Source: Escherichia phage BEU35. From it: DNA of 44,569 nt. The position numbers and the translations under genes are program-made. Below, one piece after another: positions 2,605-44,286 of the stretch. The number at the start of each line of letters is the position of its first letter. The stretch's first letter is position 1. Location: sequence record OM632668.1; one strand, given 5' to 3'. The notes below the pieces were generated by a model. It searched no databases, was not told where the DNA came from, and was given only the letters and a program-made list of their open reading frames with translations.

Positions 2605-3306
2605 ATGAATCGTTTTTTACGTTATCCGTTCCAGGAAGAAGCTGGAGCAGAAGATAAAGCTGGTGGCGGTGACGCTCCTAAAATGTTCACCGCTGAAGAA
2701 GTTCAGGCGCTGATTGAGAAAGAAGTTGCCGGGCTTAAGGCCAATCAGGAAGCATTGCTGGCGGAGAAGAAAGAAGCCGCCCGTAAAGCAAAAGAGGCCG
2801 AAGAAGAACGGCAGCGTGCGCACCAGGAGGCGTTAAAGGCCGCCGGTAAGATGGACGAGTTTGAAAAGACGATTCGTAGCCAGTATGACCCGGTGTTAGC
2901 CGAGAAAGATGGCCGCATCTCCAAAATGGCAGAGCGCATCCTCGGCAGCGAACGTAAAGCGGTGCTAGGCTCTTTCGCGGGTGACTTTATTACCCCGGAA
3001 GCAGTGGACATCCTTGCGCCGTTCGTTAAGACTGAGTTCGAAGGTGATGATGTGGTTACTAAGTTTGTCGGCGCAGACGGTAACGTAATCACGACTGACC
3101 CGGAACAGTTCCGCAAATACCTGCGCGAACACAAAGCGTTTTCGCATTTGATTAAAGCAAATGCAGCTTCCGGCGGCGGGGCTTCCGGTGGCAAAGGCGG
3201 CGGGGCCGCACCAGCGTTTAAAGACATGAGTGAAGCAGAGCGTTTAGCCCTGTATAAATCGAACCCTGCCGAATTTGAACGGCAACTTAAAGCCCTGAGG
3301 AAATAA
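2605..3306 (+). CDS. capsid scaffolding protein (start taken at internal ATG 2605; ORF track opens at TTG 2551)
   Basis: Directly upstream of major capsid gene; charged A/E/K-rich helical composition. Confidence 0.55.
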   Translation: MNRFLRYPFQEEAGAEDKAGGGDAPKMFTAEEVQALIEKEVAGLKANQEALLAEKKEAARKAKEAEEERQRAHQEALKAAGKMDEFEKTIRSQYDPVLAEKDGRISKMAERILGSERKAVLGSFAGDFITPEAVDILAPFVKTEFEGDDVVTKFVGADGNVITTDPEQFRKYLREHKAFSHLIKANAASGGGASGGKGGGAAPAFKDMSEAERLALYKSNPAEFERQLKALRK

Positions 3307-3308
3307 TA

Positions 3309-4358
3309 ATGGCAATTACCACTATCGGCGATATCGTAACTGGCAACATCCCGGTCCTGGCGTCTTATATGACCGAGGACCCGGTAGAAAAAACCGCGTT
3401 CTTCCAGTCTGGTATTCTCACCCCGACCCCATACGCCGCCGAGATTGCCCGCGGCCCGTCCAACGTCGCTAATATTCCTTTCTGGAAAGCGATTGATACC
3501 TCTATCGAGCCGAACTACTCGAACGACGTATACCAGGACATCGCCACCCCGCGTAACGTGCAGACCGGCGAGATGATGGCGCGCGTTGCGTACCTGAACG
3601 AAGGTTTCGGTCAGGCGGATTTGACCGTTGAACTGACCAGCCAGAACCCGCTGCAATCCGTAGCGTCACGTCTGGATAACTTCTGGCAGCGTCAGGCACA
3701 ACGCCGTCTGATTGCTACCGCGCTCGGGCTGTACAATGACAACGTAGCCGCTACCGACGCATACCACGAGCAGAATGACATGGTAATCGACGTGTCTGCT
3801 ACTCTGGGCTTCGATGCGGGCGCGTTCATCGACGCTACCCAGACTATGGGCGATGCTCTGATGGGCAACGGCGGTGAAGTGCTGGGGGCTATCGCGATGC
3901 ATAGCTTCGTTTATGCGCAGGCACGTAAGCAGCAGCTTATCGACTTCATCCGTGACGCGGACAACAACACCATGTTCGCCACCTACCAGGGCTACCGCGT
4001 GATTGTTGACGACAGCATGACCGTAGTCGGCACTGGCCCGACCCGTAAGTTCATCTCCATCATCTTCGGCAACGGCGCTATCGGTTACGGTGAAGGTTCT
4101 CCGTCCAACCCGCTGGAATACGAGCGCGAAGCGTCCCGCGGCAACGGCGGCGGCGTTGAAACCCTGTGGACCCGTAAGACCTGGTTGCTACATCCGTTTG
4201 GTTACAGCTTCACCAGCGCGGTAATCACTGGCAACGGTACCGAGACTATCGCCCGCTCTGCTTCATGGCAGGACCTGGCGAACGCCTCCAACTGGAACCG
4301 TGTGGTTGACCGTAAGCATGTACCGATTGCCTTCCTGGTAACTGGTGTCAGGGCTTAA
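3309..4358 (+). CDS. major capsid protein
   Basis: 349 aa, position after scaffold, followed by strong terminator hairpin; HK97-fold-like MCP size and composition. Confidence 0.8.
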   Translation: MAITTIGDIVTGNIPVLASYMTEDPVEKTAFFQSGILTPTPYAAEIARGPSNVANIPFWKAIDTSIEPNYSNDVYQDIATPRNVQTGEMMARVAYLNEGFGQADLTVELTSQNPLQSVASRLDNFWQRQAQRRLIATALGLYNDNVAATDAYHEQNDMVIDVSATLGFDAGAFIDATQTMGDALMGNGGEVLGAIAMHSFVYAQARKQQLIDFIRDADNNTMFATYQGYRVIVDDSMTVVGTGPTRKFISIIFGNGAIGYGEGSPSNPLEYEREASRGNGGGVETLWTRKTWLLHPFGYSFTSAVITGNGTETIARSASWQDLANASNWNRVVDRKHVPIAFLVTGVRA

Positions 4359-42315: not shown

Positions 42316-44286
42316 ATGCTATTAACTTTAGTACCACAGGGTTTAACTATGAGCTTACTTACATCCCTCATCAGCCATCAGATATGGCTGCAACGCACCG
42401 CATCCGGTGAGGTGAAAGACCTCACACCGTTCATTCAGGAGATGCGGGATGAAATTAAACGGCAGGTGCTGTTATTCGGTGACGACGGTCGTAGCACTGC
42501 GCGACTGAATAAATTGTTACGCGACCTTGAGGAAGCACTAACCGGACTTACGGGCGACTGGCAGACAAAGCTGACAGAAGACCTTAAGGAACTGGCGGCG
42601 TATGAGGCCGAGTGGAACGTAAAGACTCTGACCGCCAACGTTAACGCGGAATTTGTTACCCCTACCGCGGAACAGGTGTGGGCCGCTGCCGAGTTTCAGC
42701 CATTATCGTTGAGTGACAAGCCCGTTGATTTCACTAAGCTGATGGACGGCTGGGGTGAAACAGAAGTCGCGCGCCTGGTAACCGGCGTTAAGATGGGCTT
42801 TGTACAAGGCCAAACCACACGGCAGATTGTTAAGAACGTCGTAGGCGCTGGCGGACTGGCGGACATCTCTGAGCGTAACGCGGCCACCGTAATCCGTACT
42901 GCACTGTCTCACGTATCCAACGAAGCACGTAACGAGACGTACCGCCAGAACGACGACATCATCGAGAAATATGAGTGGGTGTCTACGCTGGACAGCCGTA
43001 CCAGTACAACGTGTTTCACGGCTGAAACAGAATTAGCGCCCATCGCGGGGATGGACGCGGTAATGCGCGGACTCTATTCAGGAAAAATCTTTACCATCGA
43101 ACTTTCCAACGGCGAGAAGTTCAGTGGCACCCCGAAACACCCTGTACTCACGCAATACGGATGGACTCCGCTTGATGAACTCGATCCAACTAAGCATGTC
43201 TTGTATACCACTGTTGACAAAGTGACTGTGCTCGAAACAGTGAAGAACATAAACATGCCAGCCAGAGCGGATTATATTTTTAATACGCTCGCTGATTTCC
43301 CCATCAGGAAAATGGTAAGCACGAGTCCCGCGGCAACAGATTTCTATGGCGATGGAGTGGGACTCAATGGCAAAATCGACATTGTACGGGCCGATTGCAA
43401 ACTGCGGAACTACGTCCACGCCAGCGGAATTAAACAATTCAAAAGCGAGGGTTTCAGTCTTATTCATAGCGCCGCTTTGCTGTCGGACGATAGCTCTGGC
43501 GATTTTCTCCTCCGGGGTGAATGTCCTGTGAGTGTGCCCGCGCTTAGCGAGGCCAAGTGTTTTGACCATAGAATAGAAAACTGTTTTGCTTACTTGGGTC
43601 CTTCTTATGCACTCAATAGGCGGGACGCCGGACTCGAACAATTCTATAGCCCTTTTTTGATTCAAAATGGTGTCGTTAGAAACCCAACCACGGGGTCGAT
43701 CATGCATGAGTCCGAGCTTCTTGAGAAATGTTGTTACCGTGGTGGTAGTGACGCCGTAATTCTTGGCTATGATGCTGGCGGGAGTGCCATCTCGGTACAA
43801 AGAGCAAATATCATCCGCATAAGCGTCGAGTTTAGAACGTGCCATGTTTATACCCTCTCTAGTAGTCAAGGATATTATACAGCAGGTAGTGCGATAGTCA
43901 AGAATTGCAGGGCCAGAGACGGAATGACGTGGGAAATCGGTAAAGGTCCGATGCCACCAGCCCATCCTAATTGCCGAAGTACCACTGCACCGGTAATCAG
44001 TTCAGAGTTCGACTTCCTTGATAAAGGCGCAAAACGTGCGGCTAAGGGTGCGGACGGCGGTACTCAGGTAAGCGCAGACACCACTTACTACGAGTTCCTT
44101 AAACAACAACCGGCGTGGTTTCAGGACCAGGCCCTCGGCCCGGTGCGAGGTAAGATTTTCCGTAACAGCGGTATATCGCCGGAAGAGTTTCGCGTAATAT
44201 CTGTAGATGGTTTCGGGAATCCGCTCACGCTTAAGCAGATGGCGGAACTCGATAAACGTGTTGCTGATTATCTGAAAGGGGAATAA
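42316..44286 (+). CDS. Mu F / SPP1 gp7-type head morphogenesis protein precursor with in-frame intein (alternative start ATG 42349)
   Basis: Extein DSRTSTT...CRARDGMTWEIGKGPMPPAHPNCRS matches Mu-F-type conserved core; interrupted by 298 codons with intein blocks. Confidence 0.7.
   Translation: MLLTLVPQGLTMSLLTSLISHQIWLQRTASGEVKDLTPFIQEMRDEIKRQVLLFGDDGRSTARLNKLLRDLEEALTGLTGDWQTKLTEDLKELAAYEAEWNVKTLTANVNAEFVTPTAEQVWAAAEFQPLSLSDKPVDFTKLMDGWGETEVARLVTGVKMGFVQGQTTRQIVKNVVGAGGLADISERNAATVIRTALSHVSNEARNETYRQNDDIIEKYEWVSTLDSRTSTTCFTAETELAPIAGMDAVMRGLYSGKIFTIELSNGEKFSGTPKHPVLTQYGWTPLDELDPTKHVLYTTVDKVTVLETVKNINMPARADYIFNTLADFPIRKMVSTSPAATDFYGDGVGLNGKIDIVRADCKLRNYVHASGIKQFKSEGFSLIHSAALLSDDSSGDFLLRGECPVSVPALSEAKCFDHRIENCFAYLGPSYALNRRDAGLEQFYSPFLIQNGVVRNPTTGSIMHESELLEKCCYRGGSDAVILGYDAGGSAISVQRANIIRISVEFRTCHVYTLSSSQGYYTAGSAIVKNCRARDGMTWEIGKGPMPPAHPNCRSTTAPVISSEFDFLDKGAKRAAKGADGGTQVSADTTYYEFLKQQPAWFQDQALGPVRGKIFRNSGISPEEFRVISVDGFGNPLTLKQMAELDKRVADYLKGE
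43012..43905 (+). other. intein (298 codons, Cys1 to Asn298, +1 Cys) within the head morphogenesis gene
   Basis: Starts CFTAETEL; block B-like TPKHPVLTQYGWTPLDEL; ends VYTLSSSQGYYTAGSAIVKN followed by Cys. Confidence 0.65.
43078..43845 (-). CDS. opposite-strand ORF nested in the intein: tandem HTH plus Vsr/DUF559-like nuclease-like region; candidate homing endonuclease (ORF track extends to 43965)
   Basis: AGAGAGG RBS before ATG 43845; HTH-like TPASIIAKNYGVTTTTVTTFLKKLGL and VPPIECIRRTQVSKTVFYSMVKTLGL; PYNVDFAIESHSIAIEI ... RSGWHVYVL. Confidence 0.45.
   Translation of the reverse strand: MARSKLDAYADDICSLYRDGTPASIIAKNYGVTTTTVTTFLKKLGLMHDRPRGWVSNDTILNQKRAIELFESGVPPIECIRRTQVSKTVFYSMVKTLGLAKRGHTHRTFTPEEKIARAIVRQQSGAMNKTETLAFELFNSAGVDVVPQFAIGPYNVDFAIESHSIAIEICCRGTRAYHFPDGEISERIKNIIRSGWHVYVLHCFEHSHFVNSGIQDMLSWIEFIKRSPSVLREYRVFRGATELLAVGKFDGKDFS

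What the first reader, a model, noticed from the sequence alone, without database searches (positions are those of the whole stretch)
43012..43905. Intein in the Mu-F-type head morphogenesis gene, with Lys in place of the usual penultimate His
The conserved head morphogenesis core is split (…DSRTSTT | intein | CRARDGMTWEIGKGPMPPAHPNCRS…) by 298 in-frame codons. The insert begins with Cys (CFTAETEL), contains TPKHPVLTQYGWTPLDEL (as I recall, close to block B of the Mtu RecA intein, TPDHKVLTEYGW), and ends …GSAIVKN followed by Cys. The terminal Asn is present but the penultimate residue is Lys rather than His, which in other inteins alters C-terminal cleavage chemistry. Inteins in virion assembly proteins are uncommon compared with replication proteins and terminases.
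Basis: partly seen in the sequence, partly recalled or inferred. Interest (0 to 1): 0.65.

Follow-up and report, generated by a model that had tools for sequence, protein, structure and literature searches.

The report
Intein carrying an antisense homing-endonuclease gene
The insert is a genuine intein in a coliphage head-assembly gene, already noted in near-identical phages, and its middle is really a separate DNA-cutting enzyme gene on the opposite strand with its own promoter, an arrangement first described in 2025.

Summary
Window 43012-43905 is a 298-codon in-frame insert (CFTAETEL…AIVKN|C) in a Kagunavirus Mu-F-type minor head gene. About 250 related phages lack it; intein-free alleles read DSRTSTI|CRARDG. 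The two ends are predicted to fold as an intein splicing domain.

The intein is not new: 99.6-99.9% identical copies are annotated in GenBank and were mentioned in a 2024 paper.

The gene has a near-consensus sigma-70 promoter, a Shine-Dalgarno sequence and a terminator-like hairpin, all inside the intein. The −35 box TTGAC is the reverse complement of the Val-Lys codons, which offers a reason for the unusual penultimate Lys.

The intein is almost identical in phages whose flanks differ by about 10%, which indicates recent homing. In 97 of 99 metagenomic viral loci this nuclease family lies antisense in a long open frame, and 96 of those have intein ends at Mu-F motifs.

Antisense Vsr-like endonucleases in inteins were reported in a 2025 preprint, so this is a new member of a known kind.

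The parts
42316..44286 (+). Precursor gene for the Mu-F / SPP1 gp7-type minor head (head morphogenesis) protein: 656 aa with the intein, a predicted 358 aa after splicing
   Evidence: ORF; phrog_241 E 1e-147 and Pfam Phage_Mu_F; GenBank annotation 'minor head protein with inserted intein' in 98.8% and 94.2% identical phages
43012..43905 (+). Intein, 298 codons, from Cys1 (TGT 43012-43014) to Asn298 (AAT 43903-43905). The penultimate residue is Lys297 (AAG 43900-43902).
   Evidence: Absent from about 250 relatives at exactly this point. Hint fold predicted. Only 3-4 differences in 894 nt between phages whose flanks differ by about 10%.
43012..43245 (+). N-terminal splicing region (blocks A and B; T40-P-K-H43 at 43129-43140)
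   Evidence: pLDDT 86-97 for residues 1-70. Pfam Intein_splicing gives 23 bits, below the gathering score. H43 is invariant and T40 nearly invariant in 37 homologs.
43396..43782 (+). Sense-strand residues 129-257. This stretch is kept open but predicted unstructured, and acts as a passive linker dictated by the gene on the other strand.
   Evidence: pLDDT below 50 throughout. Over the wider middle region compared (residues 76-262), sense identity between homologs is 0.25-0.30 against 0.42-0.47 for the antisense frame, and substitutions peak at sense codon position 1.
43795..43905 (+). C-terminal splicing region (blocks F and G: CHVYTL…GYYTAGSAIVKN)
   Evidence: pLDDT 90-96; a Hint-C profile hit was found in 93 of 97 related loci
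43906..43908 (+). Cys+1 (TGC), the conserved Cys of the Mu-F LDxRT…C…DG motif and the predicted nucleophile for transesterification
43078..43845 (-). Antisense homing-endonuclease gene: ATG at 43845-43843, TGA at 43080-43078, 255 aa. It has HTH1 at about residues 7-43, HTH2 at about 57-96, a Vsr-like nuclease core at about 126-226, and a C-terminal hairpin that overlaps intein block B. Its codons are in exact register with the intein codons.
43874..43901 (-). Sigma-70-type promoter for the antisense gene: TTGACT (43901-43896), 16 nt spacer, TATAAT (43879-43874). The -35 box is the reverse complement of the codons Val296-Lys297 (GTC AAG). The -10 box is the reverse complement of the Tyr-Tyr codons of GYYTA.
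   Evidence: 11 of 12 consensus matches. It is one of only three such sites in the whole window, against 0.46 expected from shuffles. The hexamers are conserved in L004, L005, L012 and all VKN loci while spacer synonymous sites vary.
43853..43857 (-). Shine-Dalgarno GAGGG, 7 nt upstream of the ATG. It is the reverse complement of the Thr-Leu codons of block F HVYTL. The ATG itself is the reverse complement of the block F His278 codon CAT.
   Evidence: conserved as GAGG(G/T)T(A/G)TAAACATG in L004, L005, L007 and L012
43026..43058 (-). Terminator-like hairpin (9 pairs, 6 of them G-C) followed by TAATTCTGTT, 20 nt after the antisense stop codon and still inside the intein
   Evidence: This is weak evidence: a consensus scan only, with a poor T tract.
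42985..43946 (.). Tract of near-identity shared with intein-bearing phages KMB36 and Ec1-ASingh: the intein plus 27 nt on the left and 41 nt on the right. This is the apparent co-conversion tract of homing.
   Evidence: Nearest flanking differences are at 42984 and 43947, while flanks otherwise carry about 20 differences per 200 nt

Best explanation
This is a mobile element of two genes on opposite strands of the same 894 bp.

On the + strand, the ends of the insert encode a class-1 intein splicing (Hint) domain. After translation of the 656-aa minor head precursor, Cys1 would make the thioester, Cys+1 would take over the N-extein, Asn298 would cyclise, and a 358-aa Mu-F protein plus a free 298-aa intein would result. 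About 130 residues between the splicing blocks are a disordered loop. That loop has no function of its own except to stay free of stop codons.

On the - strand, in exact codon register, lies a self-contained cassette within the intein boundaries: promoter, Shine-Dalgarno sequence, 255-codon ORF and a terminator-like hairpin. It encodes a tandem-HTH DNA-binding region fused to a Vsr-like (EDxHD-related) nuclease. This enzyme most likely cuts the intein-free allele (…DSRTSTI|CRARDG…) of a co-infecting phage. Repair from the intein-bearing copy would then transfer the intein and the nuclease gene together, along with a few dozen flanking bases.

Because codons are in register, the nuclease gene only has to avoid TTA, CTA and TCA to keep the intein frame open. 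Its signals are written in intein codons: the ATG is the block F His codon CAT, GAGG is Thr-Leu, the -10 box is Tyr-Tyr, and the -35 box TTGAC is Val-Lys. The last of these gives a plausible reason why this lineage has Lys rather than His before the terminal Asn.

Shown here: the insertion, the predicted folds, selection on the antisense frame, recent horizontal spread, and conservation of the signals. Inferred: splicing, transcription from the internal promoter, nuclease activity, the target site, and the causal link between Lys and the -35 box.
For: Intein:
- The insertion point is exact relative to intein-free alleles.
- The Hint fold is predicted and the best PDB matches are all inteins.
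- Catalytic Cys1, T40/H43, Asn298 and Cys+1 are present.

Antisense gene:
- In seven independent homologs at 25-53% protein identity both frames are open and in register.
- In the middle of the intein, antisense identity is 0.42-0.47 against 0.25-0.30 for the sense frame, and BLOSUM per column is about 2.1 against 0.9. Changes peak at sense codon position 1, which is the antisense wobble. This holds in six pairs from two clades, even with a sense-guided alignment.
- Of the four substitutions among the near-identical phage copies, three are synonymous in the antisense frame and non-synonymous in the sense frame.
- Sense residues 129-257 have pLDDT below 50.
- The gene has no TTA, CTA or TCA codon in 255 codons, where 6.4 are expected (P about 0.0015).
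- A similarly long antisense ORF elsewhere in the window (2745-3656) has no PHROG family hit.

Expression signals:
- The promoter matches 11 of 12 consensus positions and is one of three such sites in 2 x 44.6 kb.
- The hexamers and the SD are conserved across homologs. Every VKN locus has CTTGAC, whereas VHN loci have TGGAC.

Mobility:
- There are 3-4 differences in 894 nt against about 10% divergence in the flanks, with short identity tracts on both sides.

Generality:
- 97 of 99 IMG/VR loci have the nuclease antisense to an in-register open frame. 96 have a Hint-N match and 93 a Hint-C match, at two Mu-F sites.
- All 18 GenBank phage hits lie under Mu-F or minor head genes, and the two checked lie on the opposite strand.

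Against: - No experimental data are available: splicing, transcription, translation and cleavage are all untested.
- Pfam support is weak. Intein_splicing scores 21.7 bits against a cut-off of 35.8, and HTH_7 and REase_MTES_1575 have E about 1e-3 to 1e-4.
- Long in-register antisense open stretches occur by chance in this genome, up to 236 codons, so ORF length alone proves nothing.
- The His of the Vsr/EDxHD active site seen in the other clade (VAVEVWGGGWHW) is replaced in this clade by IEICCRGT, so the catalytic chemistry or activity may differ.
- Block G is also conserved at the protein level, so promoter conservation is partly confounded with intein constraint.
- GTC for Val is also used in VHN relatives.
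- The terminator match is weak.
- The AF2 model of the nuclease rests on only 4 sequences (pLDDT 73.7).
Confidence: 0.82

Rival explanations
1. The antisense protein is real but does not drive homing of this intein. It might be an inactive nuclease retained as a DNA-binding protein, or a nuclease used against competing phages or host DNA that merely hitch-hikes in the intein.
For: The clade that includes the window lacks the WH(W) histidine motif of the other clade and of Vsr-type enzymes. The 2025 preprint notes that several VSR-like HEN inteins look vertically inherited.
Against: E131, D157, E168 and R187 are invariant across 29 diverse members. The near-identical intein in divergent flanks, with short co-conversion tracts, is the signature of endonuclease-driven homing. 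Free-standing relatives sit immediately next to the Mu-F target motif. The family is tied to two specific Mu-F sites.
Confidence: 0.1
2. The minus-strand ORF is a non-functional shadow ORF produced by codon bias. The element would then be an intein with a long, decaying or linker-like middle and no endonuclease.
For: In-register antisense frames are often open in this genome, with runs up to 236 codons. A 303-aa antisense ORF exists over the scaffold and capsid genes. The GenBank annotators did not call it.
Against: The ORF keeps the same start and end in homologs down to 25% identity. The antisense frame is the better conserved one in the middle. The predicted fold is HTH plus Vsr nuclease. 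Thousands of profile hits are full-length proteins. It has its own consensus promoter and SD. The control shadow ORF has no family hit.
Confidence: 0.05
3. The middle of the insert encodes a novel in-frame endonuclease or other domain on the + strand, as in canonical inteins, and the antisense conservation is a by-product of that.
For: Some + strand motifs are conserved across clades (MPxxxxIF, DFYGDG/DFHGDG), and residues 80-128 get moderate pLDDT of 60-90.
Against: There is no Pfam or PHROG domain hit for the sense middle beyond the Hint part. pLDDT is below 50 for residues 129-257. Sense identity is only 0.25-0.30, with substitutions concentrated at sense first codon positions. The conserved sense motifs map onto the nuclease's catalytic motif (IAIEI) on the other strand. 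The sense middle of L012 is unrelated low-complexity sequence while its antisense protein is well conserved.
Confidence: 0.02
4. The insert is a non-splicing accessory domain of the minor head protein rather than an intein.
For: The Pfam Intein_splicing hit is below the gathering score and covers only the N-terminal part, and the penultimate His is missing.
Against: About 250 close relatives function without it. All the splice-junction residues a class-1 intein needs are present apart from the non-essential penultimate His, and the fold matches solved inteins. The insert splits a conserved Mu-F motif directly before its conserved Cys.
Confidence: 0.01

Closest known systems
Inteins with an anti-sense VSR-like homing endonuclease in actinobacteriophages (Gosselin, Arsenault & Gogarten, bioRxiv 10.1101/2025.01.02.630785)
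   Different: The host here is an E. coli Kagunavirus, and protein identity to the Gordonia copies is only about 25%. The insertion site is different: LDxRT…|C…DG rather than PPxHPx|CRC (the actinophage-like IMG/VR loci use the latter; the site in the preprint's own phages was not checked). The ORF here overlaps blocks B and F rather than lying outside the splicing domain. A sigma-70 promoter, SD and start codon written in intein codons are described here. The preprint calls the architecture rare, whereas here the nuclease profile finds 2,483 cluster representatives at E<1e-10, and 97 of 99 sampled viral loci have it antisense in an open frame.
[quoted passage not shown]
   Same: It is the same intein, 99.7-99.9% identical in DNA, at the same site.
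   Different: Those records describe only an intein. No antisense gene, promoter or homing evidence is given.
Fractured genes: split inteins with a free-standing Vsr-like endonuclease gene between the halves (Dassa et al. 2009, PMC2677866), and I-Bth0305I of the EDxHD family (Taylor et al. 2011, PMC3239194)
   Same: The nuclease superfamily is the same and it is associated with phage inteins. The endonuclease brings its own expression signals. The underlying idea, that a free-standing endonuclease gene invaded a mini-intein, is the same.
   Different: There the endonuclease gene is in the same orientation and breaks the host gene into two ORFs joined by trans-splicing. Here it is inverted, in codon register, and the intein stays in one piece. 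The DNA-binding part here is two resolvase-like HTH motifs. The clade containing the window lacks the conserved His of the EDxHD motif.
Anti-sense LAGLIDADG endonuclease ORFs in inteins (Gorbalenya 1998 and Gogarten et al. 2002, as cited in the 2025 preprint)
   Same: The principle is the same: the homing endonuclease is encoded on the strand opposite the intein.
   Different: The nuclease family is different (LAGLIDADG rather than Vsr-like).

Membership tests
Intein (class 1, Hint/splicing domain) | In-frame insertion at a conserved site of a host protein, absent from close homologs | tested here: met
   254 of 257 related phage records lack it. Intein-free alleles read DSRTSTI|CRARDG. The spliced exteins of related loci give a full-length Phage_Mu_F match.
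Intein (class 1, Hint/splicing domain) | N-terminal Cys/Ser nucleophile, block B TxxH, C-terminal Asn, and Cys/Ser/Thr at +1 | tested here: met
   Cys1, T40-P-K-H43, Asn298 and Cys+1 are present. C1, H43 and N298 are invariant or nearly so in 37 homologs.
Intein (class 1, Hint/splicing domain) | Penultimate His (usual, not obligatory) | tested here: not met
   The residue is Lys297 (AAG). Relatives have K, H, R or Q at this position. From general knowledge, efficient inteins such as the DnaE split inteins also lack this His.
Intein (class 1, Hint/splicing domain) | Hint fold | tested here: met
   AF2 pLDDT is 86-97 and 90-96 for the two ends. The Foldseek top hits are Mtu RecA, Ssp/Npu DnaB and gp41-1 inteins with probability about 1.0. 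Pfam Intein_splicing alone is sub-threshold.
Intein (class 1, Hint/splicing domain) | Protein splicing activity | not testable with these tools
   This needs expression and mass analysis. Indirectly, the host gene is a conserved head morphogenesis gene in plaque-forming phages that carry the intein.
Intein with anti-sense VSR-like HEN (2025 preprint) | Endonuclease ORF on the opposite strand within the intein, with the intein frame uninterrupted | tested here: met
Intein with anti-sense VSR-like HEN (2025 preprint) | Antisense product has a Vsr-like nuclease fold, and the sense middle has no recognisable structure | tested here: met
Intein with anti-sense VSR-like HEN (2025 preprint) | Sequence homology to the reported actinophage examples | tested here: met
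   tblastn hits at 24-30% identity under the MuF-like minor capsid genes of Gordonia phages Fosterous, Affeca, Vivi2 and Angelicage; for Fosterous, the one checked, the hit is on the opposite strand
Vsr-like / EDxHD homing endonucleases (I-Bth0305I) | Vsr-type alpha/beta nuclease core | tested here: met
   The best sequence-profile PDB hit of the nuclease domain is 3r3p, but it is weak (E 0.027).
Vsr-like / EDxHD homing endonucleases (I-Bth0305I) | Conserved active-site residues E, D, H, D | tested here: inconclusive
   E131, D157, E168 and R187 are invariant in 29 members. The His-containing GGxWHW of the other clade is CCRGT in the window's clade.
Vsr-like / EDxHD homing endonucleases (I-Bth0305I) | Site-specific cleavage of the element-free allele | not testable with these tools
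   Only indirect evidence is available: the homing signature.
Fractured gene / split intein with free-standing endonuclease (Dassa 2009) | Host gene broken into two ORFs, each carrying an intein half | tested here: not met
   A single 656-codon ORF with no stop. The same holds in 97 of 99 related loci.
Canonical intein with in-frame LAGLIDADG or HNH endonuclease domain | Endonuclease domain translated in the intein frame | tested here: not met
   There is no such Pfam or PHROG hit in the sense frame, and the middle is predicted disordered.

The most novel reading that the evidence does not exclude
This intein and its nuclease would form an obligate two-strand partnership specialised on Mu-F head proteins. 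It would be far more abundant than the 'rare' label in the literature suggests (thousands of protein clusters, Gram-negative as well as actinobacterial phages). The selfish gene's expression signals would be written into, and would constrain, the intein's catalytic blocks. In particular, the penultimate His to Lys change would be selected because AAG completes the -35 box TTGAC of the antisense promoter. Regulatory DNA for the endonuclease would then shape the splicing active site.
Probability: 0.4. Interest if true: 0.65.

Novelty: new member of a known kind. Interest (0 to 1): 0.5.

Why it matters
- **Annotation.** The coliphage records and older genomes such as Aaphi23 list only a 'minor head protein', with or without an intein. 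They miss a complete, probably expressed nuclease gene on the other strand. Some of these Kagunaviruses are being evaluated for therapy.
- **Intein biology.** This is a clean, culturable E. coli system for testing how a free-standing endonuclease gene and a mini-intein become one mobile unit. Sense-synonymous changes can knock out the antisense gene without touching the intein, and vice versa.
- **Overlapping genes.** About 255 codons are read on both strands, with opposite selection regimes along the element and with promoter, SD and start codon embedded in conserved catalytic blocks.
- **Scale.** The survey here suggests the architecture is common in Mu-F genes of uncultured phages.

Tried and rejected
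- A genome-contig scan with the nuclease alignment found no confirmed relative, so the family looks phage-borne. No further scan was made.
- The search for related loci with the 29-sequence alignment failed because it was too diverse. It was replaced by two clade-specific alignments.
It was redone with database proteins.
- Three literature searches on 'opposite strand', 'antisense Vsr' and 'opposite orientation' found nothing relevant. A fourth found the 2025 preprint.
- I first read the insert as 897 nt with an extra Thr codon, from BEU33 alone. This was rejected after two ordinary intein-free alleles showed the same codon count with Ile at -1. BEU33 is the odd one.
- ORF length as evidence for the antisense gene was discounted, because chance in-register runs reach 236 codons.
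- The short -35/-10-like pair directly upstream of the ATG (TTGACT…TATAAA) was rejected as a promoter because the spacer is only 11 nt.
Full report
**1. The observation**

The window is almost a whole Kagunavirus (Guernseyvirinae) coliphage genome. ORF 42316..44286 (+, 656 aa) is the Mu-F / SPP1 gp7-type head morphogenesis protein: phrog_241 at E 1e-147, and Pfam Phage_Mu_F.

The segment 43012-43905 is in frame. It starts with Cys (CFTAETEL), contains TPKHPVLTQYGW, and ends …GSAIVKN followed by Cys.

Megablast against 50,697 phage records finds 257 relatives of the gene. Only three carry the insert: fEg-Eco06, vB-Eco-KMB36 and Ec1-ASingh. The rest align in two pieces. Two ordinary intein-free alleles read DSRTSTI|CRARDG with the same codon count.

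**2. It is an intein, and that part is already known**

- An AlphaFold model built on 37 homologs gives pLDDT 86-97 for residues 1-70 and 90-96 for residues 261-298.
- Its best PDB matches are all intein splicing domains, starting with the Mtu RecA intein.
- Cys1, His43 and Asn298 are invariant or nearly so among the homologs.
- Removing the equivalent segment from related proteins restores a full Phage_Mu_F match.
- GenBank already annotates the two annotated copies as 'minor head protein with inserted intein'.
- A 2024 paper mentions a 900-bp intein in the vKMB36 minor head gene.

**3.

The minus strand carries an ORF (43965..43078) whose codons are in exact register with the intein codons. 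Counting from the ATG at 43845 it encodes 255 aa.

It has weak Pfam hits to a resolvase HTH and to a Vsr-type restriction-endonuclease family. Its homologs at 53, 45 and 26% identity all lie opposite an uninterrupted intein-in-Mu-F frame. Three further loci do the same.

**4. Which strand is under selection**

Using codon alignments of six loci, I compared three regions.

| Region (intein residues) | Sense aa identity | Antisense aa identity | BLOSUM per column, sense / antisense | Position with most substitutions |
|---|---|---|---|---|
| Middle (76-262) | 0.25-0.30 | 0.42-0.47 | about 0.9 / about 2.1 | Sense position 1, the antisense wobble |
| Two Hint ends | Equal or better conserved in most pairs | Lower, except the C-terminal end in the window's own clade | – | – |

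The middle-region result holds in six pairs from two clades, even when the alignment is guided by the sense protein. Among the four near-identical phage copies, three of four substitutions are silent on the antisense strand and amino-acid-changing on the sense strand.

**5. What each strand encodes**

- The antisense protein is predicted (pLDDT 73.7) to be two helix-turn-helix units followed by an alpha/beta nuclease core.
- The sense strand over residues 129-257 has pLDDT below 50.
- The nuclease gene contains no TTA, CTA or TCA codon. These are the only codons that would put a stop in the intein frame. At this phage's codon usage 6.4 are expected (P about 0.0015).
- Long antisense open stretches do occur by chance here, up to 236 codons, so length alone is not evidence. 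A 303-aa antisense ORF over the scaffold and capsid genes serves as a control and has no family hit.

**6. Expression signals inside the intein**

| Signal (minus strand) | Coordinates | Sequence | Intein codons on the + strand |
|---|---|---|---|
| -35 box | 43901-43896 | TTGACT | Val296-Lys297 (GTC AAG) |
| -10 box (16-nt spacer) | 43879-43874 | TATAAT | Tyr-Tyr of GYYTA |
| Shine-Dalgarno | 43857-43853 | GAGGG | Thr-Leu of block F HVYTL |
| Start codon | 43845-43843 | ATG | His278 of block F (CAT) |
| Terminator-like hairpin | 43058-43036 | – | N-terminal Hint region |

- The promoter matches 11 of 12 consensus positions. It is one of only three such sites on either strand of the window, where shuffles give 0.46.
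- The coordinates and the codon correspondences were verified directly.
- The hexamers and the SD are conserved in L004, L005 and L012, while synonymous sites in the spacer vary.
- Across the site-a loci, every intein ending VKN has CTTGAC with a -10-like hexamer 16-18 nt downstream. Those ending VHN have (A/G)TGGAC, with one exception (ATGTAC), and three of them use a TTGACA made by the extein codons TGT CAA.

This suggests, but does not prove, that the penultimate Lys is favoured because its codon completes the -35 box.

**7. Mobility**

Against KMB36 and Ec1-ASingh the flanks differ by about 20 positions per 200 nt. The intein differs at only 3-4 of 894 positions. Identity extends 27 nt to the left and 41 nt to the right of the intein. 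That is the pattern expected from endonuclease-driven homing with short co-conversion tracts.

**8. How general it is**

- A profile of the antisense protein finds 9,563 cluster representatives at E<1e-3 among 1.84 billion, 2,483 at E<1e-10 and 303 at E<1e-30. Most are full-length proteins of 250-300 aa.
- Their C-terminal motif R(E/Q)YR(V/M)(V/I)(R/W)G is the codon-by-codon complement of intein block B, T-P-x-H-P-(V/I)-L-T. Val or Met stands opposite the His codons CAC or CAT. At least 122 of the top 150 carry this motif.
- In 99 IMG/VR loci, 97 have an in-register stop-free frame opposite the nuclease. 96 of these have a Hint N-terminal match and 93 a C-terminal match.
- The inteins sit at two Mu-F sites: LDxRT(S/T)xx|C…(K/H/R)N|C..DG, as in the window, and PPxHPx|CLPGD…THN|CRC.
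- In the GenBank phage collection all 18 hits lie under Mu-F or minor head genes. They include Gordonia phages, Aggregatibacter phages Aaphi23 and S1249, an Idiomarinaceae phage and a Vibrio phage. The two records checked have the hit on the opposite strand.

**9. Comparison with what is known**

The 'fractured genes' of Dassa et al. 2009 use the same nuclease superfamily, but in the same orientation and with split inteins.

The window is therefore a new member of a recently described kind. It appears to be the first noted in a coliphage. The additions made here are:
- the codon-register logic that keeps both frames open;
- the internal promoter, SD and start codon written in intein blocks;
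- a candidate explanation for the penultimate Lys;
- evidence that the architecture is common in Mu-F genes rather than rare.

**10. Limits**

Nothing here shows splicing, transcription, translation or cleavage. The window's clade lacks the His-containing motif of the other clade (CCRGT in place of GGxWHW), so the nuclease chemistry is uncertain. The link between Lys and the -35 box is an inference confounded by protein-level conservation of block G.

Noticed in passing
L002 (Escherichia phage BEU33, OM632667), equivalent to window 43008-43904: BEU33 is identical to the window from about 41,620 to the window's end, but lacks exactly 897 nt. That is the intein plus one extein codon, so it reads DSRTST-CRARDG where normal intein-free alleles read DSRTSTI-CRARDG. 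It could be an imprecise intein loss that also destroys the homing site, or an unusual recipient allele. The record is flagged UNVERIFIED_ORG.
   Followed up: partly
window 43009-43011; L112, L113: The extein residue just before the intein is Thr (ACG) in intein-bearing phages and Ile (ATT) in intein-free Kagunaviruses. This fits either co-conversion from the donor or adaptation of the splice junction.
   Followed up: partly
L021:2492-3352 and L086:2315-3205: These are the only two of 99 loci where the nuclease gene is not opposite an open frame. It sits free-standing, convergent, immediately after the stop codon of a Mu-F gene that ends just past its intact H..CRC motif. In L021 the block-B 'shadow' motif has drifted to EYHLVW. 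These may be ancestors of, or escapees from, the intein-embedded state.
   Followed up: partly
L052, L105, L010/L064 (sense ORFs): Some Mu-F proteins carry two inteins. In L052 and L105 the second also carries the antisense-nuclease signature (DFHGDG on the sense strand); in L010/L064 it does not. L105 has one at each of the two usual sites. L052 has one at a third site (ARTE|CLTGD…YTGN|T).
   Followed up: no
L096, L098, L104 (upstream of the nuclease ATG): In relatives ending VHN|CQ, a perfect TTGACA is formed by the extein codons for Cys+1 and Gln+2 (TGT CAA). In those the candidate -35 box would lie partly outside the intein.
   Followed up: no
L114 (P0004; GCA_001292545.1 contig CYGL01006417.1): A 238-aa NCBI protein joins an unrelated N-terminus to the last 107 residues of this exact intein plus CRARDG, then diverges again. 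On a 1.5-kb contig this looks like an assembly chimera or a recombination product.
   Followed up: no
window 2745-3656 (-): A 303-aa antisense ORF overlaps the head scaffolding and major head protein genes and has no PHROG hit. It is most likely a chance shadow ORF and was used as a negative control.
   Followed up: yes
window 30949 (-) and 28055 (-): These are the only other sites in the window matching 11 of 12 positions of the sigma-70 consensus (TTGACA-18-TATAGT and TTGACA-17-TATAGT). They are probably early promoters of the leftward gene blocks.
   Followed up: no
L115 (Aaphi23, AJ560763, ORF42); also Aggregatibacter phage S1249, Idiomarinaceae phage 1N2-2, Vibrio phage vB_Vp_PvVp04_M: Long-published Gram-negative phage genomes have relatives of the nuclease under their 'putative minor head protein' genes. 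In Aaphi23, the one checked, it lies on the strand opposite that gene and is unannotated.
   Followed up: partly
L081, L060 (sense ORFs): Some host proteins are fusions. L081 is portal plus Mu-F by Pfam. L060 is a 1,499-aa stop-free frame (1,230 aa once the intein is removed) with a long C-terminal extension beyond Mu-F, possibly a Mu-F-linked toxin or effector.
   Followed up: no
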